Of a stretch of DNA of 64,000 nucleotides, positions 28,902 to 45,353 are shown piece by piece (the stretch's first letter is position 1; the number at the start of each line of letters is the position of its first letter). Under the pieces are notes generated by a model, which worked only from the letters and a program-made list of their open reading frames with translations, did not search any database and was not told where the DNA came from. This DNA comes from an uncultured Oscillospiraceae bacterium (GTDB lineage Bacteria; Bacillota; Clostridia; Christensenellales; CAG-138): assembly GCA_964490325.1 (NCBI GenBank), contig CAZBBX010000009.1:1859-65858 (forward strand), in the 5' to 3' direction. The position numbers and the translations under genes are program-made.

Positions 28902-30020
28902 TTACATCAGGTTTTCGGGATTCAGCGCCGTCAGCTCGGGCAGCACGAAGCGGCCGTCCTTGCGGATGAGCACATCGTCAAAGTAGATCTCCCCGCCGCC
29001 ATAGGCAGGCGTTTGGATCATCACCAGATCCCAGTGCTGCGCGGACTTGTTGCCGTTGTTGCAGTCGTCATAGCAGGCGCCGGGGGTGAAGTGGATGGAG
29101 CCTGCGATCTTCTCGTCAAAGAGCGTATCCTTCATCGGTTCGGTGATGTAGGGATTCACGCCGATGGCAAACTCGCCCACATAGCGCGCCCCCTCGTCAA
29201 TGTCCAGCTGCGCGTTGATGCGTGCCGTGTCGTTGGCGGTGGCCTCCACGATCCTGCCGTCACGGAACACAAAGCGGATGTCCGTGTAGGTAAAGCCGTT
29301 CTCCAAGGAGGGCGTGTTGTAATGGATCACGCCGTTGACGCTTTCGCGCACGGGGGCGGTGTAGATCTCGCCGTCGGGAATGTTCATCTCTCCCGCGCAC
29401 TTGATGGCGGGCAGACCCTTGATGGAAAAGCTTAGGTCGGTGTCGGCGGGACCCTTGAGCCGTACATGGTCGCTGCGCTCCATCAGCGCCTTCAGGGCGT
29501 CCATGGCCCTGTCCATCTTGGAGTAATCCAAGCAGCAGACCTTGAAGTAGTAATCCTCAAACGCCTCGGTGCTCCTGTCCGCAAGCTGCGCCATGGAGGG
29601 CGTGGGATAGCGCAGCACGACCCACTTGGTCTTGGGCACGCGGATCTCGCCGTGGACAGGCGTCCAGTACAGGCGCATGTACGCGTTCATGTTTTCGGAA
29701 GGAACGTCCTTGGTCTCGGAGGCGTTTTCCCCACCGCGTATGCCGATGTAGGCCTGCATGGAGGCCATCACCGCCGCGTCAAAGGCGGCCTTGCTCTTTA
29801 GCTGCGCCTCGGTGCAGCCAAGCAGCAGCTCCCGCTCGATGGACTTGTCGGTCGTCCACACAAAGGGGTTGCCGCCGACCTGATAGACCTGTCGAATGAG
29901 TGCCTTTACAAGCGCGCCGCAGTCGCCTATCCCCTCGATCAGTACGTTTTCACCCGCCTGCACGCGGCAGGAATGGTGAACAAGATTGTGCGCAAGCACG
30001 GTAATGCGCGGATCTGTCAC
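28902..30020 (-). CDS. aminopeptidase, M29 (AmpS/PepS) family
   Basis: 372 aa from GTG 30020 (GGGAGG 7 nt upstream): (M)TDPRITVLAHNLVHHSCRVQAGENVLIEG... The track ORF is over-extended to 30692. Confidence 0.85.
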   Translation of the reverse strand: MTDPRITVLAHNLVHHSCRVQAGENVLIEGIGDCGALVKALIRQVYQVGGNPFVWTTDKSIERELLLGCTEAQLKSKAAFDAAVMASMQAYIGIRGGENASETKDVPSENMNAYMRLYWTPVHGEIRVPKTKWVVLRYPTPSMAQLADRSTEAFEDYYFKVCCLDYSKMDRAMDALKALMERSDHVRLKGPADTDLSFSIKGLPAIKCAGEMNIPDGEIYTAPVRESVNGVIHYNTPSLENGFTYTDIRFVFRDGRIVEATANDTARINAQLDIDEGARYVGEFAIGVNPYITEPMKDTLFDEKIAGSIHFTPGACYDDCNNGNKSAQHWDLVMIQTPAYGGGEIYFDDVLIRKDGRFVLPELTALNPENLM

Positions 30021-30212
30021 AGCCTTTACCTCCCAACAAAATTCCTCTTTAGTATAGCGCCTTTTCAGCGCTTTCGCAAGGGAGTACGCAGCTGTAAAAA
30101 GTGTACGCAGATGCGAACGGCCTTCGCTTTTTTTCAACAAGAAGCGCTTGCTAAGCAAAAGTGCGCATGCTATACTGTGCATAGAAACATTTCCGAGAGG
30201 GGGCGGGTCGGG

Positions 30213-31577
30213 ATGCGGGACGAGTTTCATAATACGGTGCCGGAATATGCATCCTTGGACGAACCGCTGCTTACTCATGCCAAGACCACAAAAAAACGTG
30301 CCTCCGCTCTTGCGAGCTTGACCATAGCCGCAGCCGCCGTGCTTTTGATCGCGTTGGCCGCGTTTTTCCTGCTGCGCGTACGCGGAACGGTGATAGAGCG
30401 CAGCCCGCACAGCGCGACCATCGCCGTGGACGTGCACAAGTACGGCGTGGATACCGAGCTTTTGCGCTACGAGCTGTACGAAAACGGCGTTTCCATCAGC
30501 CGCTTCGAGGGAACGACTCCCGCAAAGGACGGCGAGCTGTCCTTTAGCGGCCTTAACGCCGATACCAAGTACCATCTGCATTTCTATGACGCTGACGATA
30601 CGGCGGGTGTCCTGCGCGTGGGCAGCATCTCCTTCCGCACCACCAAGGAGGGGGAGCAGCCGCAGCAGGGCATTGCCACGTCCACGCCGCAAAACGACGG
30701 GACGCCCACAGCGGGGATCGTTTCGACCGCCACACCCTCCCCCACGCCCACGGCAACGCCTGCGCCCACGGCGACTCCCACGGCAACACCTACGCCTACC
30801 CCTACGCCTACTCCAACACCCACGCCCACACCAACCCCTACGCCCACGCCCAAACCGACGCCCACGCCGATCCCCACAACGCTCTACGATGGTCCCGAGG
30901 TTATCGAGTGGGCGGTGTACTATCCCGCCGTGTATACCACGGACGACGCCAACACCTACGGCCTAAGGATCGCCTTCAAGCCGCACGACGCCACGGACAT
31001 CTCCGTGCGCTTCACGGCGGACAGCAGCGAGGTCTACAGCGTTCCTACATCGGACATGGAGTACTATTGGGACGGCGAGGCTTACTATGTGGACACGTCA
31101 AGCTTCCACGTTTCCGCCATCGGCACGCACACGGGCAGCTGCACGATCTCGTATAAGCTGGGCGGCACGGCGGCCACCACCACCAAGACCATCAGCTTTG
31201 CGGTGGGCGGACTGGTGATAGGCGATCTGTCCGCCGCGCTCATCACACCGGGAACGCCTGCGTTCTATCGGCTGCAGCTGAGCGGGCAGGGCTACACGAT
31301 CCCCGACGGTGCCTATCCCGTCATCGACTCTGTCGAATGGACGAACAGCCAAATGGGTGGAACGTACCATATCGTGCCGACAACGGCGTACAGCGTGGAC
31401 AGCGGCACAGGCGCGTTTACGCTCGACTATTCGCAGGCCTATGTGGCGGAGGGTGTGCCGGACAGCGTCAGCTTTACCGTTCGTGTGACGTATCACTGGG
31501 ATTGCCCCGACCTGTTCGGCGGCGTGAGCTATACGCGCAGCGCTACCCTTTCAAGCAGTGCCACGGTGCTTCCCTGA
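30213..31577 (+). CDS. hypothetical membrane-anchored protein with Pro/Thr-rich linker
   Basis: From ATG 30213 there is one N-terminal TM helix ([22 protein letters not shown]), then a [30 protein letters not shown] linker (about 30740-30880), then a beta-rich C-terminal region. No recognisable catalytic motif. Confidence 0.6.
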   Translation: [454 protein letters not shown]

Positions 31578-32609: not shown

Positions 32610-32634
32610 CGAGGGGCGCAGACCCCTCTTTTTG
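32610..32634 (+). repeat. left direct repeat = terminator hairpin of the mscS-like gene (GAGGGG-cgcaga-CCCCTC-TTTTTGT)
   Basis: GAGGGGCGCAGACCCCTCTTTTT is repeated identically at 36957-36979. Marks the left border of the AT-rich island. Confidence 0.9.
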
Positions 32635-32678: not shown

Positions 32679-32707
32679 TTGACAAATAGCGTGTTACAAC
32701 GTAAAAT
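32679..32707 (+). promoter_or_regulatory. sigma70 consensus promoter inside the island (TTGACA-17-TAAAAT)
   Basis: TTGACA at 32679-84, 17-nt spacer, TAAAAT at 32702-07. It lies about 300 nt upstream of the 1305-aa ORF. Confidence 0.55.
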
Positions 32708-33013: not shown

Positions 33014-36000
33014 ATGGGGGTATCTGACGGACAATACGCTCCGGAACGTGTCGAGTTGAAGGGATATCTCGCTGAATTCAGGGATGCATTGGAAGAGGAA
33101 ATCAGAGATATCGAGAAGAATGGCCAGTCTATAACATCGCTTGCGGGAGGAAGGAGAATCGGGAACCGTGGGCTTGAGTTTTGGTATCGATTTAGCGTTG
33201 AATATGCTCCCTCAATTCCGGCCGATACACCTGCTACGCTATTGATTGGAAGGGATCGATTTGATGTAACAGTTATCAGCTTTGAAGAGAATTCGATCAC
33301 AATCTCCTCTACAGTGCAACTGCCCGATCATATTGGACGTGCGCAACTTGAGAATGGTGCAACAGAATTGATGCGGCGACTAATCAAACGTATAGAGGAA
33401 AATGCAACCAAGAAAAATCCAGCCGGGGAACACATGCTTGATTGTAAGGACGGTGTTTATCCCGCCAAGCAGATACGTTCACATGATAATTTGGTTTTTG
33501 ATCCCGTCTATAACGAAGAACAGAAGCGAGCAATAAAAACCGCACTTGAGTATGATATTACATATATTTGGGGACCACCAGGAACTGGGAAAACCATGGT
33601 AATTGGTCGGATTGCCGGAGAATTGTTCCAACGGGGGCGTTCTGTACTGGTGGTCTCTCATACGAACACAGCGGTAGATGGTGCAATCGAAAAAACGGAT
33701 GAAGAGTATTCTAAGCGGCATACAACGGATGCCGCCGATTATCCAATTCTTAGATTAGGGACTCCTTCCAGATTGCTTCCCGAGCGAGTATTGCTTAAGA
33801 CGCATGTCACGAAGCTGGGAGAAAAGCTGGTAGAAAAGAAGCAAAAGCTTGAAAATGAACAAGCAAAAAAGAATGCCGAGATTGGCAGGATGCTGGATTT
33901 ACTGAAAAAAGATACTTGGGTCAAGGGCAATAAATTAGGACAAATTAAAGAGACGCTATATAATATCGCAAATCTTGAGAAGCAAGAAAGTGACATCAAG
34001 CAAAGAATAGAGAGCATTAACACAGAACTTCAACTGATAAAGGAGAATTGTCCTAAATATAGGGAGTATTGCGCGTTAGCAAAAGATTATTCGATATTGG
34101 AGAAAGAATATCGGTCTGCCTGTGATCGGTTATCTGAGGCAGAAACCATAATAGAGGAATCACCACGTTGTATACAGGAAGCCCTTGATGAAGTGAAGAA
34201 ACATGATATATATACGGCGCTGCGAGAGAAAGAAGAAACGCATATGTCGATACAGTTTCTAAATAAAGAGATATCAAAAGCAATTAGCAATATAGAAAGG
34301 CTCTCTTCTGAAAAAAACCAAATAGACGTTCGAAGAAACGAAGCTACACAAAAAATTGCAAAATACGAATTAAAGAGTTCTTTTGCAAAGGTATTTTCCG
34401 GAAAAGGTGCAATAAACGAAGCGCGTAGTTGCATGCAAGAATCAGAGATCCGTTTACAGCAGATTGAGTCTGAACTTCAGCGCACGCTAGAATTGGAACA
34501 AAGGTACAAAGATGAGATCAATGAATTATCAATTCTTAAGGAGCAGATTAAGGCTGTTAAACCTTCTAACACAGTATCATATTGGGAAGGTGAAGCGGAT
34601 ACGTTACAAAAAAAGAATAAGAAGGCAAAAGAAGAGAGAGAAGCGCTCTTATTATCCAAAAGCAGATTGGAGGATCGACTGCCTAAACTTGAAGCGCAAT
34701 GTAATGCAGCCAAAGTTCCTTTTGATTCGTTCAAAGAACTTGATAAGGATCGCCAAACAGCAGAAGGGGGGCTAAAGAGAATAAAAGACACCATTATGCG
34801 CGCACACAGTAGGTGTCAACAGCAACTTAGTGAAGAATACTCTCAGTGCTCTGCTTTTTCTGATATTGCTAAGGGAGGATCGAACAAGGAACTATTTGAC
34901 ATTTTGTGTACTCAGCTAAATATGGTTCGGAATGAAGTGAAAGGATGCAATCCGGAAGAACTTCAGAAACATATAGCTCAATTAGAAAAGGAACTGAATT
35001 CTGTTTCCAAACAGATGGACGAGATTAGGGAGAAATTGCTGGAGCTGGAAAAACAAGCCGTTATGAAAGCAAGCATTATTGGCTGCACATTGGCAAAATC
35101 GTATTTAAGTGACGTATTGCGCCAAAGAACTTTTGATACGGTTATACTTGATGAGGCATCGATGGCATCAATCCCTGCACTCTGGTGTGCCGGTTACCTT
35201 GCTGTAAATTGTTTTGTGATCGTTGGTGATTTTCTTCAGCTTCCGCCCATTGTGTTAGCATCAACACCTATGGCACGTAAATGGCTTGGAAAGGACATTT
35301 TCTATCATAGCGGCATGCAGGCAAAGGCGAAAGGCACGAATGAAATACCCGTAAATTTCGTGATGCTCGATAGACAGTATCGCATGGAATCTGACATAGC
35401 AGACATATCAAACATGTATTATGGACAGTATAAAAGGCTAAGATCTGATGATATAGCAACATGCAGAATTGAAGGACGTCAAAACTTCTACAAGTGGTGT
35501 TCCGAGAAGGAGAATGCCCCCCATGTTCACCTGATTGATACGGAAAGCCTTCATGCATGGGTTACGGGCGTTCGCAGACCAAAAGGTCATAGCCGACTAA
35601 ATTGCTTTTCCGCCGCGGTCGATGTTGATTTAGCGTTTAGTTTGCTGAAAAATAAACTTCTTGCACTTGATCCCAATACCGCAAAACCAGTAACAGAATC
35701 ATCGATTCTTATTGTGGCGCCATACAAACCGCATGTAAAACGGCTCAGTAAGTTAATTGAACTAGAGTATCGGAATCGCGGCTTCAAAGAAGACCTAAAC
35801 TATATTCGTGCCGGGACCATTCACAGTTTTCAGGGAAGCGAAGCTGATATTGTAATATTTGATCTTGTGATTGATGAACCACACTGGAAGGCGAATTTGT
35901 TTATGACGGAATCGGGTATTAATGATGATCTTCGAAAGATGTTTAATGTGGCAATTACAAGAGCAAAGTATCAATTGTTCATTGTGGGTAATTTTGCATA

Positions 36001-36931
36001 TTGTCAAAAACATGCAAAAAATAACGCCTTGTCCGACTTGCTCAATAAGCTTATTCTCAAAAATAGACTAGAAAAGATCGATGCAAAACAACTGTTTCCC
36101 AACATTACATTTTCTAGACAAACCGATGTGTTATGTACCAATATCCATGCCTATAAGCATATTCTTTGCCGTGAAGCGTCTTTTGATGCATACTTTATGG
36201 AGGACATTCGCAGCTTCAAACAACGTTTGATAATATATTCCCCGTTTATCACCGAAAGTCGCCTGTGCTGCCTACTTCCACATTTTGCCGATGCGGTGTC
36301 TGCAGGGAAGCAAATCATTGTTGTTACGAAAACGGTATCAGAGCGTAATAAAGGCGAAGTGGGGTCGTATCAGAAATGTGAGGAGGAGTTGCGCAGCATT
36401 GGTGTGAGCGTACTTCATAAAAAGGGAATGCACGAAAAGTTGATTTTCGTAGATAGTGAAGCGTTGTGGATCGGTTCATTGAATGCATTGAGCTATACTG
36501 GCTTGACTGGTGAAATCATGTATCGACTAGAAGACGCAACTCAAACGAAAGAACACGAAGATATCTATTATATTGAGAGTATTTGTGATGCGGTGGATCA
36601 TAGCTACGAACAGAAATGTCCTATTTGTAATAATGAAATGGTTATTCGAGATTGCAGCGATGGCGGAATTTATTGGAAGTGTATTAACTGTGACTATTCA
36701 AGAAACTATCTACAACAGTACCCGAAGGATGGAATTATGCGTTGTAAATGTGGAGCTGAATATGTTTTCTCCATGAAAAAAGAACCAAGGTGGGTTTGTT
36801 CCAAGGATCCACATCACTACCAAACAATACACAGAAGTGATCTTCTACTAAATAAGATGGCAGCACTAATACCAACAAAGGCTGACAGAGAGAGGGTTAA
36901 TGCATACTTTGACAGCCATAAGGGGGAGTGA
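33014..36931 (+). CDS. Upf1/DNA2-like SF1 helicase with coiled-coil insertion, fused to a PLD-family (single HKD) nuclease domain and two zinc ribbons; candidate single-gene anti-phage defence protein (Mokosh type II-like architecture)
   Basis: 1305-aa ORF with an AAGGGGA RBS. Helicase motifs in order: GPPGTGKT (33572-33595), VLVVSHTNTAVD, ILDEAS (DEAS 35150-35161), VIVGDFLQLPP, LDRQYRM, TIHSFQGSEADIVIFD, FNVAITRAK. HKD motif HEKLIFVD-x6-GSLN (36431-36484). CPIC-x17-CINC (36617-36691) and CKC-x15-C-x4-HH (36743-36817). Confidence 0.9.
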   Translation: MGVSDGQYAPERVELKGYLAEFRDALEEEIRDIEKNGQSITSLAGGRRIGNRGLEFWYRFSVEYAPSIPADTPATLLIGRDRFDVTVISFEENSITISSTVQLPDHIGRAQLENGATELMRRLIKRIEENATKKNPAGEHMLDCKDGVYPAKQIRSHDNLVFDPVYNEEQKRAIKTALEYDITYIWGPPGTGKTMVIGRIAGELFQRGRSVLVVSHTNTAVDGAIEKTDEEYSKRHTTDAADYPILRLGTPSRLLPERVLLKTHVTKLGEKLVEKKQKLENEQAKKNAEIGRMLDLLKKDTWVKGNKLGQIKETLYNIANLEKQESDIKQRIESINTELQLIKENCPKYREYCALAKDYSILEKEYRSACDRLSEAETIIEESPRCIQEALDEVKKHDIYTALREKEETHMSIQFLNKEISKAISNIERLSSEKNQIDVRRNEATQKIAKYELKSSFAKVFSGKGAINEARSCMQESEIRLQQIESELQRTLELEQRYKDEINELSILKEQIKAVKPSNTVSYWEGEADTLQKKNKKAKEEREALLLSKSRLEDRLPKLEAQCNAAKVPFDSFKELDKDRQTAEGGLKRIKDTIMRAHSRCQQQLSEEYSQCSAFSDIAKGGSNKELFDILCTQLNMVRNEVKGCNPEELQKHIAQLEKELNSVSKQMDEIREKLLELEKQAVMKASIIGCTLAKSYLSDVLRQRTFDTVILDEASMASIPALWCAGYLAVNCFVIVGDFLQLPPIVLASTPMARKWLGKDIFYHSGMQAKAKGTNEIPVNFVMLDRQYRMESDIADISNMYYGQYKRLRSDDIATCRIEGRQNFYKWCSEKENAPHVHLIDTESLHAWVTGVRRPKGHSRLNCFSAAVDVDLAFSLLKNKLLALDPNTAKPVTESSILIVAPYKPHVKRLSKLIELEYRNRGFKEDLNYIRAGTIHSFQGSEADIVIFDLVIDEPHWKANLFMTESGINDDLRKMFNVAITRAKYQLFIVGNFAYCQKHAKNNALSDLLNKLILKNRLEKIDAKQLFPNITFSRQTDVLCTNIHAYKHILCREASFDAYFMEDIRSFKQRLIIYSPFITESRLCCLLPHFADAVSAGKQIIVVTKTVSERNKGEVGSYQKCEEELRSIGVSVLHKKGMHEKLIFVDSEALWIGSLNALSYTGLTGEIMYRLEDATQTKEHEDIYYIESICDAVDHSYEQKCPICNNEMVIRDCSDGGIYWKCINCDYSRNYLQQYPKDGIMRCKCGAEYVFSMKKEPRWVCSKDPHHYQTIHRSDLLLNKMAALIPTKADRERVNAYFDSHKGE

Positions 36932-36956: not shown

Positions 36957-36983
36957 GAGGGGCGCAGACCCCTCTTTTTTTGT
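36957..36983 (+). repeat. right direct repeat = second copy of the terminator hairpin (GAGGGG-cgcaga-CCCCTC-TTTTTTTGT)
   Basis: Identical core to 32610-32632. It also serves as the terminator of the island gene. Confidence 0.9.
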
Positions 36984-37113: not shown

Positions 37114-37653
37114 ATGGAGATCGGCGAAAAGATCAAAAGGCTGCGCTTGCGCTTGGGTCTGACGCAGGAGGAGCTTGCGGCTCGAACGGAGCTGACCAAA
37201 GGCTTTATCTCGCAGCTGGAGCGCGACATCACCTCGCCCTCCATTGCAACGCTTATGGACATTTTAGAGGCGCTCGGCACGGACATCAGCAGCTTTTTCA
37301 GCGAACGCGTGGACGAAAAGGTGGTCTGGCCCGCCGAGGACATGTTCCTCAAGGAGGACGAAGACGCGGGGCTCACCATCCGTTGGGTGGTGGCAAGCGC
37401 GCAAAAGAACGGCATGGAGCCGATCTTTGTGACGCTGCAAAGCGGCGCGAGTACGCAGCAAAGCGATCCGCACGAGGGCGAGGAGTTTGGCTACGTCCTA
37501 AGCGGCACCGTTACGCTGATAGACGGCGATACGCGCTATCGCGTCAAAAAGGGAGACGGCTTTTATCTGCGCCCCAAGGGGGTACACTACTTGGTAAACA
37601 GCGGCAAGCGGCAGGCAGAGGTGCTGTGGGTCAGCGCGCCGCCCTCATTCTGA
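37114..37653 (+). CDS. XRE-family HTH + cupin domain transcriptional regulator (PuuR-like)
   Basis: [41 protein letters not shown], with a C-terminal cupin ([16 protein letters not shown]). Precedes potABCD. Confidence 0.85.
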
Positions 37654-37672
37654 CAGGTCGGGGGGAAAGACG

Positions 37673-39058
37673 ATGGACGAACGGAAGCATTTGATCGAGC
37701 TGATCGACGTATCGAAGGATTACAACGGGGATGTGGCGCTGGAACACATCAATTTGTACATTCGGGACGGCGAGTTTCTTACGCTCTTGGGGCCTTCGGG
37801 CTGCGGCAAGACGACCATGCTGCGCCTGATAGCGGGCTTCATTCTGCCCACTGCGGGACGCATCGAGATGGACGGGGTGGACATTGCGCGCATCCCGCCG
37901 CACAAGCGGGAGGTCAACACGGTGTTCCAAAAGTACGCCCTGTTCCCGCATCTCAACGTGTTCGACAACATCGCCTTCGGCCTGAAGATCAAGAAGCTCA
38001 GCAAGGACGTGATCGAGGAGAAGGTCAACGCCATGCTCAAGCTCGTCAACCTGCCGGGCTACGGCAAGCGTTGGGTGGATCAGCTTTCGGGCGGACAGCA
38101 GCAGCGCATCGCCATTGCCAGAGCCTTGGTCAACGAACCGAAGGTGCTGCTCCTGGACGAACCGCTCGGCGCCTTGGATCTCAAGCTGCGGCAGGAGATG
38201 CAGGTCGAGCTCAAGCGGATGCAGCAGCAGCTGGGCATCACCTTCATCTACGTCACCCACGATCAGGAGGAGGCGCTCACCATGAGCGACACCATCGTGG
38301 TGATGAAGGACGGCGTGATCCAGCAGGTCGGTACGCCCATCGACATCTATAACGAGCCGAAGAACCCCTTTGTGGCGGACTTCATCGGCGAGAGCAACAT
38401 CATCGACGGCATCATGCTGGAGGACTATCGCGTGCGCATCAACGGCGTGAGCTACAAGTGCGTGGACACGGGTTTCGGCAAGAACGTGGAGGTGGACGTG
38501 GTCGTTCGCCCCGAGGACATCGACATCGTTCCAAAGGAAGAGGCGCGCATAGCGGGCGTGGTCAGCTCGGTGGTGTTCATGGGGGTGCATTACGAGGTCT
38601 GCGTGGACTGCGGCGGCTACGAATGGGTCGTGCAGACCACGGAGAGCGCCGCTGTGGGCGACAACGTGGGCATCTCCATTCCGCCGGACGCCATCCACAT
38701 CATGAAAAAGACGCGCTCCAACAACATCTTGGACTGCGAGGTCTATCCCGACGACGGGGAGATCTACATCGACGACGTGGCGTTTACCTGCGAGATCCCC
38801 GAGGATTACGAGACCCGCGAGAAGGCACTGGTGCAGATCCGACCCGCCGACGTATCCGTTGTTGCGCCGCAGGACGCCAAGCTGACAGGCTTTGTCAAGG
38901 CGTGCATGTTCCTTGGCACGCACTATGAGATCACCATCTCCTGCAAGGAGAACGACTGGATCGCGTTCACGCCCGACTTCATGGAGGACGGCGAGGAGGT
39001 CGGCATACAGGCGGAGGCAGACAAGCTGACGCTCAGCCACACCGACCTGAACGGGTAA
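37673..39058 (+). CDS. potA: spermidine/putrescine ABC transporter ATP-binding protein with extended C-terminus
   Basis: Walker [18 protein letters not shown] and [11 protein letters not shown] motifs. 461 aa, which is longer than I recall for typical PotA proteins (about 350-385 aa). The extra length comes from a second TOBE-like repeat. Confidence 0.88.
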
Positions 39059-42235: not shown

Positions 42236-42760
42236 TTATCCCTCATGCAGTCCGAGCCGCTTATAATAGCCCGCTTCCAATAAGTAGGAGCCGTCGGGCA
42301 GGCACAGCGTGTACAGCCCCGCTTCCCGCGTAAAGCCCGTCTTTTCGTACAGGCGGACGGCGGGCAGGTTCCCCGTTACAACGAGCAGCCGCAGCCACAT
42401 GGCGCCCCTTGCCTTGGCCAAGGCGGCGGCTTGCCGCAGCAGCGCAGCACCATAGCCTTTGCCGCGGTGCTCGACGCTTACACCCAGCCGCTCCAGGTAC
42501 AGGGAAGCGCCCTTTTGCCGCGTCCAAGCGGGAAACGGCGGCTCCTGCGGCGGCGGGCACAGGGCAAAAGCGCCCATGAGCTGCCCTCCTTTAGTCAAAA
42601 CGTACAGGCGCTCGTTTTCCATATCGTCTAGAAAGCAGCAGCCGGGATAGACCTCGTTCCATATGCCGATCCCATCCGCAGCAAGCCTTGCCGTGATCCC
42701 CCCAAACAGCGTCCTAAGGGCGCCGAGATCCGCCGCCGCTGCCAAACGAAGCGTGGTCAT
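42236..42760 (-). CDS. GNAT family N-acetyltransferase
   Basis: 174-aa ORF with the acetyl-CoA binding block VSVEHRGKGYGAALLRQAAALAK...LYEKTGF. ATGA overlap with the upstream gene. Confidence 0.85.
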   Translation of the reverse strand: MTTLRLAAAADLGALRTLFGGITARLAADGIGIWNEVYPGCCFLDDMENERLYVLTKGGQLMGAFALCPPPQEPPFPAWTRQKGASLYLERLGVSVEHRGKGYGAALLRQAAALAKARGAMWLRLLVVTGNLPAVRLYEKTGFTREAGLYTLCLPDGSYLLEAGYYKRLGLHEG

Positions 42761-45120
42761 GGGGTGACGCGATAGATCGTCACGGAGCCGTTTTGAAAGA
42801 CCTCTTGGCAGTTCTCCCTAAAGTACGCCGTGTCCACGGCATAGTTGCTGTACTCGCAGCTGCCAAGGTAGACATAGTCCACGCCGTAGCTTTCAAACAG
42901 CTCGCCGCTTTCGGCGGGGTGCTCCAGCATACTTGTAACGTCGCTGCGGCGCTTGCTCGTGTCGATGCCGTGGAAGTAAAGGAAGGTGTTGGCGCCGCAG
43001 ACGATGCTGCGTCCCGTCAGGGTGGACACCGTGTTCAGGTGCCAGTTGGCGTCGGTCAAAAACAGTGCGTCCGAGGCCGTGTCCTCCTTGATAAATTCCG
43101 CCGCTTCGATCTCCTTGCTGCTGAACACCATGTAGTTGCTGCGCGCCTCGCGCACGATGGTCATGGTGGAGCTTAGGAAGGTGGTCAGCGCCAGTACGCA
43201 GCAGCCAAGGGACAGCGCCACCCTTGCTAAGCGCCAAGAGCGGGGGGCGCAGGGATCGCAGCGGAAGACCACCGCAAGCTGCAGGATGGAGCAGGCGGCT
43301 ATAAGCAGCGCCATTAGGCGGGTCAGTCCCTGCGAAATGCCAAGGAAGCTGCTTTGATACTGCTCGAACAGGAGCTTTAGCAGGATCGCGTTCACCGCAA
43401 GCGCCATAAGGACGGAGACGCCGCAAAGGACGGCCTGCGTGCGCTTGTTCATGCGCAGCTGCTCATAGCCGCCGCGAACGAGCAGCCACAGCAGGGCAAA
43501 GAGCAGCACCAGAAGCGTGCAGCAGGAGCCGAAGCGCAGATCGACCGCAGCGCCGCTTGCAACGCGCAGCAGCTTGACAAACAGGTAGGCAAACACCGCG
43601 CAGGACAGCAGAGCCGAGCCTTGCGCATAGCTGCGGCAGCTGTCGTTTGGCAGGGTGCGCTTTTTGATCGCATGGTCGATGCGGTGGTAGGCGCTTGCCG
43701 CAAAGCGGGCTACAAGGCCGCAAAGGAAGGCAAAGCTTACAAAGATGAGCTTGTTGTTGTCGTAGGTGTTGGGCTGAAAGACGACCAGCTCCGCAATGAT
43801 CCACAGCATTAGCGGCCCCGCTGCGATGCGCCGATCCCGCTTGCTCAGGCAGAGGAAGGCGGGAACGGCCAGCACAAACAGCCAACCCAGATTTTTCAGG
43901 TAGAACCACAGGTAGCTGTCCAGCTCGTTGGCCCAGTTGAAGTGGAGCTGCACCATGCCGCTTTCCGAGGCCTGCGCAAAGGTGAACAGCACCAGCTGCG
44001 GCAGCGCCAGCAGCAGCGTTCCGCAGCCAAAGACCGCCCAGCCCAAGAGCCGCTTCCAATTAAACTTACGGATAAGCTCCATCACCAGATAGACGGCGCT
44101 GATGACGCCCAGCGCCAAGAAGGAGTGGGTGTGGATGAGGGGCAGGCCACCCGCCAGCACAATCAGCGGAATGAGGTTTCGCTTCTCCCCGCGGAAGGCC
44201 CAACCCGTCAGCAGGTACAGGCAGGGGAACAGGAAGGCCCAGCCAAAGAGCGTAGCCCGTTGGGGAATGAGCATGTCCACGATGGGGTTCACCCAGCGCA
44301 GGCCGATGGTGGGCAGGTTCGTGGGCGTAAGGTAGAAGCCGTCCAAGAGGTTTTGCAGGTTGTTGCCAATGGAGGAGGAGCCAAGCAGGCTTTGCAGCGC
44401 CGTAGAGCTGCCGTCTGCAAGGTCGAAGAAGTAGGCAAAGCCAAAGCCGCTGCCAAAGAAGAACAGCAGCGTTGCAACAACGGCGCGGCCCTGCCGCTTG
44501 AGCCATTGCTCAAAGAAGAAGTACACGCCCAGTATGACAAGGGCGTAGGCATAGAGAGCGGAGATGAGGTAGGCCTGCCGCAGACTGCTGCCCAAGAGCA
44601 GCAGGGTCGAGGCCGAGGTCTCGCACAGGAAGGGATAGTTGACGGTATGCCCTACAAAGATGCTGTATTCGGGAGGGAAGGTACCCTGCTCGGCGATGCT
44701 GGTGATGAAGCCAAGGTGCATCGCAAGATCGCCGTAGGTGACTTGCCCCACCCAGTAGCCCTGCTCGTCGGTGCGCAGGATGTGCGTGGAGAACAGGCAG
44801 CAGCCCAGCACGAAGATGCCGCACAGCGCAAGCATGGGCCACAGCTGCTTGATGCAGCCTGCAAGGCCGTGTATCCGTCCCTTGGCCTTCAGTCCGCAGA
44901 CGACGCCTGCAAGGAGAGCGACCCCCAAGGCCAGCAGCTGCGCCGTTAAGGTAAAGCCGATGACAAAGGCAAAGAGCGAAGGCAGCCATGTCCACAGGAA
45001 CAGACCGATCACCAAGCCCAGCCAAATGCGGCGCTGCGGCTTGTGGGCGGAGAACAGCGCCTCGGCGATATACACGCCCGAAACGGCGAACGCCAGTACA
45101 TAGAGAAGGGATACGATCAT
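42757..45120 (-). CDS. large polytopic membrane protein, possibly a GT-C-fold (ArnT/PMT-like) glycosyltransferase
   Basis: 787 aa from ATG 45120 (GGGAGAGG upstream). At least 12 hydrophobic segments plus a C-terminal soluble domain of about 130 aa. The family assignment is a guess from topology only. Confidence 0.5.
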   Translation of the reverse strand: MIVSLLYVLAFAVSGVYIAEALFSAHKPQRRIWLGLVIGLFLWTWLPSLFAFVIGFTLTAQLLALGVALLAGVVCGLKAKGRIHGLAGCIKQLWPMLALCGIFVLGCCLFSTHILRTDEQGYWVGQVTYGDLAMHLGFITSIAEQGTFPPEYSIFVGHTVNYPFLCETSASTLLLLGSSLRQAYLISALYAYALVILGVYFFFEQWLKRQGRAVVATLLFFFGSGFGFAYFFDLADGSSTALQSLLGSSSIGNNLQNLLDGFYLTPTNLPTIGLRWVNPIVDMLIPQRATLFGWAFLFPCLYLLTGWAFRGEKRNLIPLIVLAGGLPLIHTHSFLALGVISAVYLVMELIRKFNWKRLLGWAVFGCGTLLLALPQLVLFTFAQASESGMVQLHFNWANELDSYLWFYLKNLGWLFVLAVPAFLCLSKRDRRIAAGPLMLWIIAELVVFQPNTYDNNKLIFVSFAFLCGLVARFAASAYHRIDHAIKKRTLPNDSCRSYAQGSALLSCAVFAYLFVKLLRVASGAAVDLRFGSCCTLLVLLFALLWLLVRGGYEQLRMNKRTQAVLCGVSVLMALAVNAILLKLLFEQYQSSFLGISQGLTRLMALLIAACSILQLAVVFRCDPCAPRSWRLARVALSLGCCVLALTTFLSSTMTIVREARSNYMVFSSKEIEAAEFIKEDTASDALFLTDANWHLNTVSTLTGRSIVCGANTFLYFHGIDTSKRRSDVTSMLEHPAESGELFESYGVDYVYLGSCEYSNYAVDTAYFRENCQEVFQNGSVTIYRVTP

Positions 45121-45353
45121 GACAGCCTCTCCCTTACGCAAAGTTTCTTTGATTATACACGATTCCCATGGAAAAGGAAAGCCCAATCCAAGCCTGCGGC
45201 AGCTCCATTTACTCTGAAAAGTTTCAGACGGGTAACGCTCTCTACACATTTTGAACACAATTTTCTACTACAATAGCACTGTCAGCATGGGAAACTGCGG
45301 TTGACGCTGCGGCTTTTCCGTGCTACACTTTGAGACCATAAGGAGTTGAGGAT

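What the first reader, a model, noticed from the sequence alone, without database searches (positions are those of the whole stretch)
33014..36931. 1305-aa helicase-PLD nuclease-zinc ribbon fusion: candidate single-gene anti-phage defence system
Seen directly: a full, ordered set of Upf1/DNA2/MOV10-type SF1B helicase motifs. They are GPPGTGKT, SHTNTAVD, DEAS, VGDFLQLPP, QYRM, FQGSEAD and VAITRAK. After them comes one HKD motif (HEKLIFVD-x6-GSLN) and then two Cys/His zinc-ribbon-like modules. Established knowledge: one-HKD PLD proteins (Nuc, Zucchini type) are dimeric nucleases. The pairing of a COG1112/Upf1-like helicase with a PLD nuclease defines the Mokosh anti-phage system, whose type II form is a single polypeptide; my memory of its exact domain order is not certain. 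It also mirrors the eukaryotic MOV10L1/Zucchini piRNA machinery. Inference: the island location, the foreign composition, the gene's own promoter and this enzymology together argue for a stand-alone nucleic-acid-targeting immunity gene. Several features might make it a new family or subtype rather than canonical MkoC: the ~170-aa N-terminal domain with no motif I can name, the very long coiled coil inside the helicase, and the double zinc ribbon tail. I cannot decide this without searches.
Basis: partly seen in the sequence, partly recalled or inferred. Interest (0 to 1): 0.9.

Follow-up and report, generated by a model that had tools for sequence, protein, structure and literature searches.

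The report
Mokosh-like helicase-nuclease with coiled-coil arm
A single foreign gene dropped between housekeeping genes encodes a 1305-residue motor-plus-nuclease protein that looks like a distant, structurally elaborated cousin of the known one-gene anti-phage system Mokosh type II, so it is a good but untested candidate for a new subtype of bacterial immunity.

Summary
Order: N-terminal beta-barrel with flanking helices; Upf1-like SF1B helicase split by an all-helical insert of about 425 aa; one single-HKD PLD nuclease domain whose closest folds are Zucchini, NucT and Nuc; two zinc-ribbon modules. The gene is a low-GC islet (GC3 38% against 78-87% in neighbours), bracketed by an exact 23-nt direct repeat of a terminator hairpin, between housekeeping genes.

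It has the defining architecture of Mokosh type II, but it is not a canonical MkoC. It scores 157 bits in two pieces on the MkoC profile, against 1518 bits full-length for a true MkoC. Homology covers only motif II to the HKD (22% identity).

It belongs to a separate family: at least 125 clusters at 50% identity, with close members in gut/rumen Clostridia and Bacteroidales and shorter-insert members in many phyla. There is no conserved synteny. Members sit beside BREX, Gabija and restriction systems, in integrative elements, or alone. The coiled-coil insert recalls CoCoNuT CnuH helicases.

Verdict: new variant of a known kind. Function is inferred, not shown.

The parts
32611..32633 (+). Left copy of the exact 23-nt direct repeat GAGGGGCGCAGACCCCTCTTTTT. 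It is the terminator-like hairpin after the MscS-like gene and marks the left edge of the low-GC cassette.
32679..32707 (+). Best sigma-70-like promoter match (TTGACA-17-TAAAAT, 11 of 12), inside the AT-rich (38% GC) leader of the cassette, about 306 nt upstream of the ATG. Consensus match only.
33014..36931 (+). Whole ORF, 1305 aa plus stop: helicase-PLD-zinc-ribbon fusion.
33014..33508 (+). N-terminal domain, residues 1-165: helix 18-35, six strands 40-113, helix 115-129. This is a predicted beta-barrel with flanking 'stalk' helices, at the position of the Upf1-family 1B/OB domain. It has no sequence match in Pfam or PDB.
33509..33793 (+). First part of RecA-like domain 1A, residues 166-260, with Walker A (187-194, nt 33572-33595) and motif Ia SHTNTAVD (215-222).
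33794..35068 (+). All-helical insert, residues 261-685 (ten helices; 39% E/K/Q/R, 4% P/G). It is probably a long antiparallel coiled-coil arm at the position of Upf1 domain 1C. Sequence is poorly conserved, but length is nearly fixed: 376 aa for residues 270-645 in 24 of 38 homologues and 375-376 aa in 32.
35069..36055 (+). Rest of domain 1A and RecA-like domain 2A, residues 686-1014: DEAS (713-716, nt 35150-35161), VGDFLQLPP, QYRM, FQGSEAD, VAITRAK.
36056..36583 (+). Linker and single-HKD PLD nuclease domain, residues 1015-1190 (Pfam PLDc_2 1063-1182). HxK(x)4D is at 1140-1147 (nt 36431-36454) and GSLN at 1154-1157.
36611..36709 (+). Zinc-ribbon module 1, residues 1200-1232: C1202, C1205 and C1223 are invariant. 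The fourth ligand C1226 is present here but replaced by Gly-Asp in most relatives.
36743..36826 (+). Zinc-ribbon module 2, residues 1244-1271: C1244, C1246, C1262 and H1268 are invariant. It is followed by C-terminal helices up to residue 1301.
36957..36979 (+). Right copy of the 23-nt direct repeat (same terminator-like hairpin sequence as the left copy; the terminator scan listed only the left copy), 25 nt after the stop codon. It marks the right edge of the cassette; start-to-start spacing is 4346 nt.

Best explanation
The gene is a horizontally acquired, stand-alone nucleic-acid-targeting immunity gene. It has the Mokosh type II design but belongs to a separate family.

Proposed mechanism:
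1. The Upf1-like SF1B motor, with its N-terminal barrel and the two C-terminal zinc ribbons as extra nucleic-acid-binding surfaces, loads on single-stranded DNA or RNA produced by an invading phage or plasmid. It translocates 5'->3' using ATP.
2. The C-terminal PLD domain carries only one HKD half-site. It can therefore cut only when two copies pair, as in Nuc, NucT and Zucchini.
3. The long, length-conserved coiled-coil arm inserted in RecA1 is proposed to control that pairing, or to sense the substrate or a partner. Nuclease activity would then be licensed only on the right target.
4. Cleavage is metal-independent, through a phosphohistidine on H1140.

Shown here: domain order, intact catalytic residues, folds, foreign origin, sporadic distribution, and defence or mobile-element neighbourhoods of homologues.

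Inferred: defence function, substrate, polarity, dimer-gated nuclease, and the role of the arm.
For: **Architecture and catalytic residues**
- All motifs are present and invariant across 38 homologues.

**Helicase fold**
- Model pLDDT is 83.6.
- Foldseek top hits are senataxin, IGHMBP2, Dna2, Upf1 (TM up to 0.72 by target), Sen1 and ZNFX1.

**PLD fold**
- Model pLDDT is 88.7.
- Top hits are mouse Zucchini/PLD6, H. pylori NucT and Salmonella Nuc, all single-HKD nucleases, and also the PLD domain of the restriction enzyme SauUSI.
- Only one HKD motif is present per chain.

**Similarity to Mokosh**
- The closest defence models are MkoA (185 bits) and MkoC (157 bits), and the C-terminal helicase-to-PLD stretch is colinear with MkoC.
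- In Mokosh, Walker A and PLD active-site mutants lose defence.
- E. coli Mokosh II is a monomer in solution and protects only against an ssDNA phage.

**Foreign origin**
- GC3 is 38% against 78-87% in neighbours.
- A 23-nt direct repeat sits at both ends of a 4.3-kb cassette.

**Genomic context of homologues**
- No synteny or partner is conserved family-wide; a sister clade keeps a downstream two-gene pair (see below), absent here. In 115 neighbour ORFs from 14 loci, no Pfam family occurs in more than 3 ORFs.
- Homologues lie beside type III RM + McrBC, type I RM + GmrSD + serine recombinase, BREX + HEC-06 + PDC-S41 and Gabija, and Mrr + type I RM in an integrase element.
- One lies in an ICE-like element with ArdA.
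- Others stand alone among housekeeping genes.
Against: - There is no experimental evidence for this family.
- In this window there is no neighbouring defence gene or mobility gene.
- I did not test the defence association of homologues statistically against a background.
- The protein is not a canonical MkoC, so the Mokosh phenotype cannot simply be transferred.
- In six loci of a sister clade, the gene is followed by a conserved pair: a ~396-aa protein and a WG_beta_rep protein. Some members may therefore need partners.
- The antiparallel-hairpin geometry of the insert is deduced from the one-dimensional pattern of helix breaks, not from coordinates.
- Most relatives lack the fourth Cys of zinc module 1.
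Confidence: 0.6

Rival explanations
1. It is a derived member of the CoCoNuT CnuH helicase lineage: Upf1-like helicases with an OB/stalk and a coiled-coil insert, which work with McrBC-like GTPases and a nuclease effector and are predicted to target RNA. On this reading it has fused its PLD effector and lost the McrBC partner, rather than being a relative of Mokosh.
For: - CnuH helicases have a large helical insertion with coiled coils after Walker A and an OB fold flanked by stalk helices. In type III-B the nuclease is fused to the helicase, and in type III-C the effector carries PLD domains.
- This protein has the same layout.
- One homologue (L095) lies directly downstream of a McrB/McrC pair.
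Against: - The defining association with CnuB/CnuC is absent in the window and in all but one of about 15 contexts.
- The PLD-to-helicase junction is colinear with MkoC.
- I could not obtain CnuH sequences, so there was no direct comparison.
Confidence: 0.15
2. It is cargo that serves a mobile element rather than the host. Examples would be a factor for competition between elements, for plasmid or ICE exclusion, or for processing of the element's own DNA or RNA.
For: - Several homologues sit inside integrative or conjugative elements next to recombinases, integrases, ParB or ArdA.
- The cassette in the window is foreign and flanked by direct repeats.
- A second locus (L104) also has a flanking 33-nt repeat.
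Against: - At least five contexts, including the window, have no mobility genes at all.
- No full-length relative was found on 72,556 plasmids or 50,697 phage records.
- Defence genes are commonly carried as cargo on such elements, so this reading overlaps with the main one.
Confidence: 0.15
3. It is a housekeeping DNA-repair or RNA-quality-control helicase-nuclease (DNA2-, Upf1- or senataxin-like) of this organism.
For: The nearest solved structures are eukaryotic RNA/DNA surveillance helicases. One homologue lies in the dnaA-gyrA origin region.
Against: - GC3 is 40-50 points below that of the host genes.
- No NCBIfam family reaches its cut-off.
- Distribution across phyla is patchy and synteny is not conserved.
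- The nearest relative of the host's MscS locus has no such arrangement.
- The origin-region copy arrives together with the same foreign downstream genes that are seen elsewhere.
Confidence: 0.05

Closest known systems
Mokosh type II (MkoC; E. coli YjhR lineage)
   Same: - One polypeptide with a Upf1-like SF1 helicase N-terminal to a single-HKD PLD nuclease.
- Walker A and the HKD are intact.
- The stretch from motif II to the HKD is colinear and homologous: hhalign 98%, E 1.6e-13, 504 columns.
- MkoC also has a long spacer (about 400 aa) between Walker A and motif II.
   Different: - Identity is only 22%.
- It scores 157 bits in two pieces on the PADLOC MkoC profile, against 1518 bits end to end for a true MkoC.
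- The ~290-aa MkoC N-terminal region is unrelated.
- The MkoC spacer is not coil-like: 27% E/K/Q/R and 11% aromatic.
- MkoC ends about 35 aa after the HKD and has no zinc-ribbon tail.
CoCoNuT CnuH helicases (types II/III; Bell et al. 2024, PMC11090510)
   Same: - Upf1-like helicase with an OB/stalk before Walker A and a large helical insertion with coiled coils after it.
- Coupled to, or fused with, a nuclease. Type III-C uses PLD domains.
- Predicted to be a defence function.
   Different: - CnuH is almost always encoded with McrBC-like CnuB/CnuC, and often with TerY-P. Here there is no partner.
- The fused nuclease in type III-B is Vsr-like, and the PLD domains of type III-C are on a separate CnuE protein.
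- The sequence relationship was not tested.
Mokosh type I helicase MkoA with MkoB
   Same: MkoA is the best-scoring PADLOC model for the helicase core: 185 bits, residues 646-1013 on profile 731-1097. MkoB and DrmC give weak hits on the PLD domain.
   Different: - Type I is a two-gene system in which the helicase protein carries an extra kinase domain (the serine-threonine kinase domain of Millman et al.).
- Here there is one gene and no such domain.
- A PLD-less Bacillaceae helicase scores just as well on MkoA (188 bits), so that score mostly reflects the generic Upf1-like core.
Eukaryotic Upf1-family helicases and the MOV10L1/Zucchini (PLD6) pair
   Same: - The helicase model superposes on Upf1, IGHMBP2, senataxin, Sen1, Dna2 and ZNFX1.
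- The PLD model's best hit is mouse Zucchini.
- The pairing of helicase and PLD nuclease mirrors the piRNA machinery, as noted for Mokosh.
   Different: - Here it is a fusion in one chain.
- It has a 425-aa helical insert and bacterial zinc ribbons.
- There are no CH, SQ or other eukaryotic accessory domains.
Single-HKD PLD nucleases Nuc / NucT / BfiI type, and SauUSI
   Same: One HxK(x)4D plus GSxN per domain, and a fold match with TM 0.59-0.69 by target. SauUSI is a precedent for a PLD nuclease fused to an ATP-dependent helicase in restriction.
   Different: - Nuc and NucT are small stand-alone dimers.
- SauUSI is an ATP-dependent restriction endonuclease in which only the PLD domain matched here. 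From my own knowledge, not checked here, it pairs an N-terminal PLD domain with an SF2 helicase and recognises modified DNA.

Membership tests
Mokosh type II (MkoC) | [quoted passage not shown] | tested here: met
   AAA_11/AAA_12 at 166-993 and PLDc_2 at 1063-1182. Folds confirmed.
Mokosh type II (MkoC) | Full-length, high-scoring match to the MkoC family profile (PADLOC PDLC03924), as shown by bona fide MkoC. | tested here: not met
   It scores 157 bits in two pieces (168-344 on profile 251-418; 878-1183 on 840-1122 of 1136). Buttiauxella and Escherichia MkoC score 1518 and 1471 bits over positions 1-1135. Nine distant family members score 123-155 bits.
Mokosh type II (MkoC) | Homology over the N-terminal region and the inter-motif spacer of MkoC. 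| tested here: not met
   hhalign aligns only residues 608-1162 with MkoC 580-1137. BLASTP additionally finds only the Walker A patch.
Mokosh type II (MkoC) | Intact ATP-binding and PLD active-site residues, which are required for defence. | tested here: met
   K193, D713/E714, H1140, K1142 and D1147 are present and invariant in 38 homologues.
Mokosh type II (MkoC) | Protects cells against phage. | not testable with these tools
   This needs plaque assays. Only the neighbourhoods of homologues speak to it.
Mokosh type I (MkoA + MkoB) | Two genes: a helicase protein with an additional kinase (serine-threonine kinase) domain, and a separate PLD protein. | tested here: not met
   There is one gene, and the neighbours are an MscS-like channel and an XRE-cupin regulator. 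The MkoA profile is covered only at 731-1097 of 1112.
CoCoNuT CnuH | Upf1-like helicase with an OB/stalk and a large helical or coiled-coil insertion after Walker A. | tested here: met
   Barrel at 40-113 between helices 18-35 and 115-129, and an all-helical stretch at 261-685. Family description.
CoCoNuT CnuH | Nearly invariant genomic association with McrBC-like CnuB/CnuC. | tested here: not met
   Absent from the window. Seen next to only one homologue, L095, out of about 15 contexts.
CoCoNuT CnuH | Sequence or phylogenetic placement within the CnuH clade. | not testable with these tools
   The CnuH sequences in the paper's supplement are truncated in the held copy.
Upf1-like SF1B helicases | Ordered motifs I, Ia, II, III, IV, V and VI, and a two-RecA fold with 1B and 1C accessory domains. 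| tested here: met
   Motifs. PDB sequence hits to Upf1, DNA2, SETX, IGHMBP2 and Sen1. Foldseek E down to 3e-20 and TM by target up to 0.72. The equivalence of the N-terminal barrel to 1B rests on position and secondary structure only.
Single-HKD PLD nucleases (Nuc/NucT/Zucchini) | One HxK(x)4D with a downstream GSxN, the PLD fold, and an active site formed by a homodimer. | tested here: inconclusive
   Motif and fold are met. Dimerisation could not be tested.
Nhi / DNA2-type nuclease-helicases | A nuclease of a different fold placed N-terminal to the SF1 helicase. | tested here: not met
   The PADLOC Nhi model gives only 19-20 bits on the P-loop. The N-terminal domain is a barrel with no nuclease motif or match.

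The most novel reading that the evidence does not exclude
This is the founding example of a distinct, widespread single-protein immune family that current defence-finding profiles cover only partially. In it, an SMC/Rad50-like antiparallel coiled-coil arm of fixed length, grafted into a Upf1-type motor, acts as a ruler or dimerisation switch. The arm brings two half-site PLD domains together only on invader single-stranded DNA or RNA. That would be a new way to gate a nuclease, and a prokaryotic counterpart of helicase-plus-Zucchini RNA processing within one chain.
Probability: 0.3. Interest if true: 0.75.

Novelty: new variant of a known kind. Interest (0 to 1): 0.5.

Why it matters
- **Mokosh would broaden.** If the protein protects against phages, Mokosh-type immunity would extend from the enterobacterial MkoC lineage to a separate family. 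That family is common in gut and rumen Clostridia and Bacteroidales and also occurs in marine and soil phyla. Some single 90%-identity clusters hold hundreds to over a thousand metagenomic sequences.
- **Mechanism could be dissected.** How Mokosh senses infection and controls its PLD nuclease is still unknown. This protein has a single HKD half-site, a length-conserved coiled-coil arm and zinc ribbons in one chain. That gives a tractable system for asking how a helicase licenses a nuclease.
- **Annotation gap.** Defence-annotation profiles cover this family only partially.

Tried and rejected
1. **Empty-site comparison.** I looked for a related genome with the MscS gene next to the XRE-cupin/PotA genes but without the insert. 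The closest MscS relative (79% aa, an Oscillospiraceae MAG) is not syntenic. An exact search for the left junction in metagenome contigs found nothing. The insertion is therefore inferred from composition and the flanking repeat only.
2. **Naming the N-terminal domain by sequence.** Pfam and PADLOC scans on the segment, a 21-sequence profile against PDB, and Pfam on all members gave nothing.
3. **Direct comparison with CnuH.** The sequences were not retrievable.
4. **Regulatory RNA in the 380-nt leader.** There was no Rfam match, and the leader is not conserved in other loci.
5. **Relatives on plasmids and phages.** Only partial, distant helicase hits were found.
6. **A split, type-I-like version of the family.** I searched with the PLD-zinc-ribbon module. 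Hits of 1100 aa or more (about 85 of the 150 listed) carry it at the C-terminus, and I interpret the many shorter hits as fragments rather than stand-alone proteins, which I did not check.
7. **Housekeeping helicase reading.** Rejected on composition, patchy distribution and lack of synteny.
8. **NCBIfam.** No family reaches its cut-off; the best is IGHMBP2 at 138 against 349 bits.
9. **E. coli yjhR.** In K-12 and in the other strains I sampled it is only a C-terminal remnant. I took full-length MkoC from Buttiauxella, Escherichia sp., Pantoea and Tatumella loci instead.

Full report
**1. Observation**

The ORF 33014..36931 on the + strand starts with ATG and encodes 1305 aa.
- Walker A GPPGTGKT 187-194 (K193)
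- SHTNTAVD 215-222
- DEAS 713-716
- VGDFLQLPP 737-745
- QYRM 788-791
- FQGSEAD 939-945
- VAITRAK 979-985
- HEKLIFVD 1140-1147, followed six residues later by GSLN 1154-1157

There is one HxK(x)4D motif in the chain.

Pfam finds AAA_11 (166-345, E 9e-35) and AAA_12 (779-993, E 9e-24). PLDc_2 (1063-1182) scores 29.2 bits when that segment is scanned alone. The Zn_ribbon_Top1 and Zn_ribbon_recom matches in the tail are weak.

A database search returned more than 120 full-length relatives of 1300-1410 aa at 45-57% identity with the same Pfam set. In an alignment of 38 of them, the catalytic residues and C1202, C1205, C1223, C1244, C1246, C1262 and H1268 are invariant. C1226, the fourth ligand of the first zinc module, is present here and in a minority; most relatives have Gly-Asp there.

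**2. Setting in the window**

- GC falls from about 0.60 to 0.41 over the gene. GC3 is 0.38, against 0.78-0.87 for the three neighbouring genes.
- An exact 23-nt repeat, GAGGGGCGCAGACCCCTCTTTTT, lies at 32611-32633 and at 36957-36979. The left copy scored as a terminator-like hairpin; the right copy has the identical sequence but was not listed by the scan. The first copy follows the MscS-like gene and the second follows the helicase gene. The foreign DNA is thus a 4.3-kb one-gene cassette with a duplicated terminator at each end.
- The AT-rich leader holds the best promoter-like match, TTGACA-17-TAAAAT at 32679-32707. The number of such matches in the region is no higher than in shuffles.
- The neighbours are housekeeping genes: M14 carboxypeptidase, MurJ-like flippase, MazG, M29 aminopeptidase and MscS on one side, and an XRE-cupin regulator and PotA/PotB on the other. 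There is no multi-gene defence island here.
- The host is probably an uncultured Oscillospiraceae-like member of the Clostridia. The closest MscS relative is 79% identical. The identical protein occurs only on two short metagenome contigs.

**3. Anatomy**

AlphaFold2 with the 38-sequence alignment gave a model of residues 1-1020 with mean pLDDT 83.6.

- *N-terminal domain.* Residues 18-35 form a helix, 40-113 form six strands, and 115-129 form a helix. This barrel-between-two-helices pattern lies just before Walker A, where Upf1-family helicases carry the 1B/OB barrel on its stalk. That equivalence is an inference from position and secondary structure. By sequence the domain matches nothing in Pfam, PADLOC or PDB, even with a profile that includes distant members.
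- *Helical insert.* Residues 261-685 are ten helices with short breaks.
  - The composition is 39% E/K/Q/R and 4% P/G.
  - The breaks are roughly mirror-symmetric about residues 454-463, which suggests one long antiparallel hairpin. I could not inspect coordinates.
  - The insert sits between motifs Ia and II, the position of Upf1 domain 1C.
  - Its sequence is poorly conserved, but its length is nearly fixed: 376 aa for residues 270-645 in 24 of 38 homologues, and 375-376 aa in 32.
- *Helicase fold.* Foldseek places the model with senataxin, IGHMBP2, Dna2, Upf1 (TM by target up to 0.72), Sen1, ZNFX1 and Aquarius. There is a weak Rad50 hit further down the list.
- *C-terminal region.* The model of residues 1015-1305 has pLDDT 88.7.
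  - Its best structural matches are mouse Zucchini/PLD6, H. pylori NucT and Salmonella Nuc. PLD3 and the PLD domain of SauUSI follow.
  - After the PLD core come two three-stranded modules, at 1200-1232 and 1244-1271, and then terminal helices.

**4. Relation to Mokosh**

[quoted passage not shown] They show that Walker A and PLD mutants lose defence. E. coli yjhR is a remnant of such a gene.

I recovered full-length MkoC (1171-1176 aa) from Buttiauxella, Escherichia sp., Pantoea and Tatumella loci. These score 1471-1518 bits end to end on the PADLOC MkoC profile.

The window protein scores 157 bits in two pieces, covering about 40% of that profile. It scores 185 bits on the helicase part of MkoA. 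BLASTP gives 22% identity over 483 aa, from motif II to the HKD. Profile-profile comparison aligns only residues 608-1162 with MkoC 580-1137 (98%, E 1.6e-13).

MkoC differs in three places:
- It has an unrelated N-terminal region of about 290 aa.
- Its 400-aa spacer is not coil-like.
- It has no zinc-ribbon tail.

So the protein has the Mokosh type II design and shares ancestry in the helicase-PLD core, but it is not a member of the MkoC family.

**5. The family**

A scan of one genome per species found 222 relatives.
- Full-length members at 40-57% identity are in Lachnospiraceae, Oscillospiraceae and other Clostridia, and in Bacteroidales, mostly from gut and rumen.
- Members of about 1000-1070 aa occur in Dehalococcoidia, Planctomycetota, Verrucomicrobiota, SAR86, Pelagibacteraceae, Peptococcaceae and others. 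They have the same N-terminal domain, HKD and CxxC tail, but only about 300 aa between Walker A and motif II. A match in a Methanocellaceae archaeon MAG (L050) was listed but its architecture was not checked.
- Bacillaceae and Nitrospira relatives lack the PLD domain.
- Nine of these members score 183-210 bits on MkoA and 123-155 bits on MkoC, so the whole family lies outside MkoC.
- The PLD-zinc-ribbon module finds 125 clusters (at 50% identity) at E <= 1e-30 and 350 at E <= 1e-10. In hits of 1100 aa or more (about 85 of the 150 listed) it lies at the C-terminus; the many shorter hits are probably fragments.
- No full-length relative is on sequenced plasmids or phages.

**6. Genomic context of homologues**

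No synteny or partner is conserved across the family as a whole; one sister clade does keep a downstream pair (below). Among 115 neighbour ORFs from 14 loci, no Pfam family occurs in more than three ORFs. Of about 15 independent contexts:
- *At least five carry bona fide defence systems within 10 kb:*
  - type III RM plus McrBC
  - type I RM plus GmrSD with a serine recombinase
  - BREX (PglX, PglZ, BrxL) plus HEC-06 and PDC-S41
  - Gabija
  - Mrr plus type I RM in an integrase element
- *One is in an ICE-like element* with ParB, a DNA methylase and ArdA.
- *At least five, including the window, are solitary* among housekeeping genes.
- *In six loci of a sister clade* the gene is followed by a conserved pair, a ~396-aa protein and a WG_beta_rep protein of about 1000 aa, in different host settings. 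The window lacks this pair.

This pattern fits a mobile defence gene. I did not compute an enrichment statistic.

**7. Mechanism**

*Shown:* an intact SF1B motor, one HKD half-site in a Nuc/Zucchini-type fold, extra putative nucleic-acid-binding modules, and foreign origin.

*Inferred from established knowledge of these families:*
- Upf1-like helicases move 5'->3' on RNA or ssDNA.
- Single-HKD PLD nucleases act as dimers through a phosphohistidine and need no metal.

E. coli Mokosh II is a monomer in solution and protects only against an ssDNA phage. I therefore propose that the motor loads on invader single strands and that cleavage needs two PLD domains to pair. The coiled-coil arm would control that step. 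The substrate, the trigger and the role of the arm are all untested.

**8. Other comparisons**

CoCoNuT CnuH helicases share the OB/stalk and a large helical insertion with coiled coils after Walker A. They are coupled to, or fused with, nucleases, including PLD domains in type III-C. However, they are defined by association with McrBC-like CnuB/CnuC, which is absent here. I could not compare sequences.

**9. Verdict**

- It is a new variant of a known kind: a Mokosh-type-II-like helicase-PLD fusion from a separate family, with a CnuH-like coiled-coil arm and a zinc-ribbon tail.
- Confidence that it is an anti-mobile-element defence gene is about 0.6.
- Interest is 0.5. The design is already known and function is unproven. 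The length-conserved arm in a Upf1-type motor, and the family's abundance in gut microbes, make it worth testing.

Noticed in passing
window 32611-32633 and 36957-36979: An exact 23-nt direct repeat of a terminator-like hairpin brackets the 4.3-kb low-GC cassette, so the MscS-like gene and the inserted gene end with the same hairpin sequence. No integrase or transposase is present. The insertion mechanism is unknown.
   Followed up: partly
L104 9136-9168 and 14245-14277: A second locus has a flanking direct repeat (33 nt, 30 of 33 identical) around a small upstream ORF plus the homologous gene. Four other loci checked (L095, L096, L106, L019) show none spanning the gene.
   Followed up: partly
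L014, L016, L093, L104, L132, L133 (downstream of the homologue): In six loci of a sister clade (about 55-57% identity to the window protein), the gene is followed by the same pair: a ~396-400-aa protein with no Pfam match and a 950-1059-aa WG_beta_rep protein. The host contexts differ: an RHS region, an ICE-like element, and the dnaA-gyrA origin region. This may be a three-gene module. It is absent from the window.
   Followed up: partly
L073-L090 (Priestia, Bacillus and other Bacillaceae) and L066, L070, L091, L092 (Nitrospira): These relatives share the helicase core (tblastn matches start near query residues 10-20, so probably the N-terminal domain too; not checked directly) but lack the PLD domain. 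The Bacillaceae form (about 844 aa) ends in four CxxC pairs instead.
   Followed up: no
L054, L055, L056, L064, L047: SAR86, Desulfomonilaceae, Opitutaceae and an unclassified Pseudomonadota MAG carry family members with Walker A at about residue 320-338. That implies an extra N-terminal region of about 150 aa, which I did not examine.
   Followed up: no
L001 15016-16032 (E. coli K-12 yjhR): The K-12 yjhR pseudogene is only the C-terminal 338 aa of an MkoC. DNA matching it occurs in 1730 of 5426 complete E. coli genomes. In those sampled it is truncated or interrupted by IS elements.
   Followed up: partly
window 29973-31577 (+) and 42757-45258 (-): Two long ORFs (534 and 832 aa) in the high-GC flanks gave no Pfam match at E <= 1e-5. 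The first overlaps an M29 aminopeptidase gene on the other strand and may be spurious.
   Followed up: no
window 37631-39040 (-): A 469-aa ORF lies antisense to the PotA-like gene. It is typical of the long spurious reading frames found in 60% GC DNA and is not a gene candidate.
   Followed up: no
L095 6063-9931: The homologue P0108 lies directly downstream of a McrB-like protein (DUF8425, DUF8426, AAA_5), a McrC and a 215-aa unknown, after a type III RM system. I did not check whether this McrBC is of the CoCoNuT (NxD, coiled-coil) kind.
   Followed up: no
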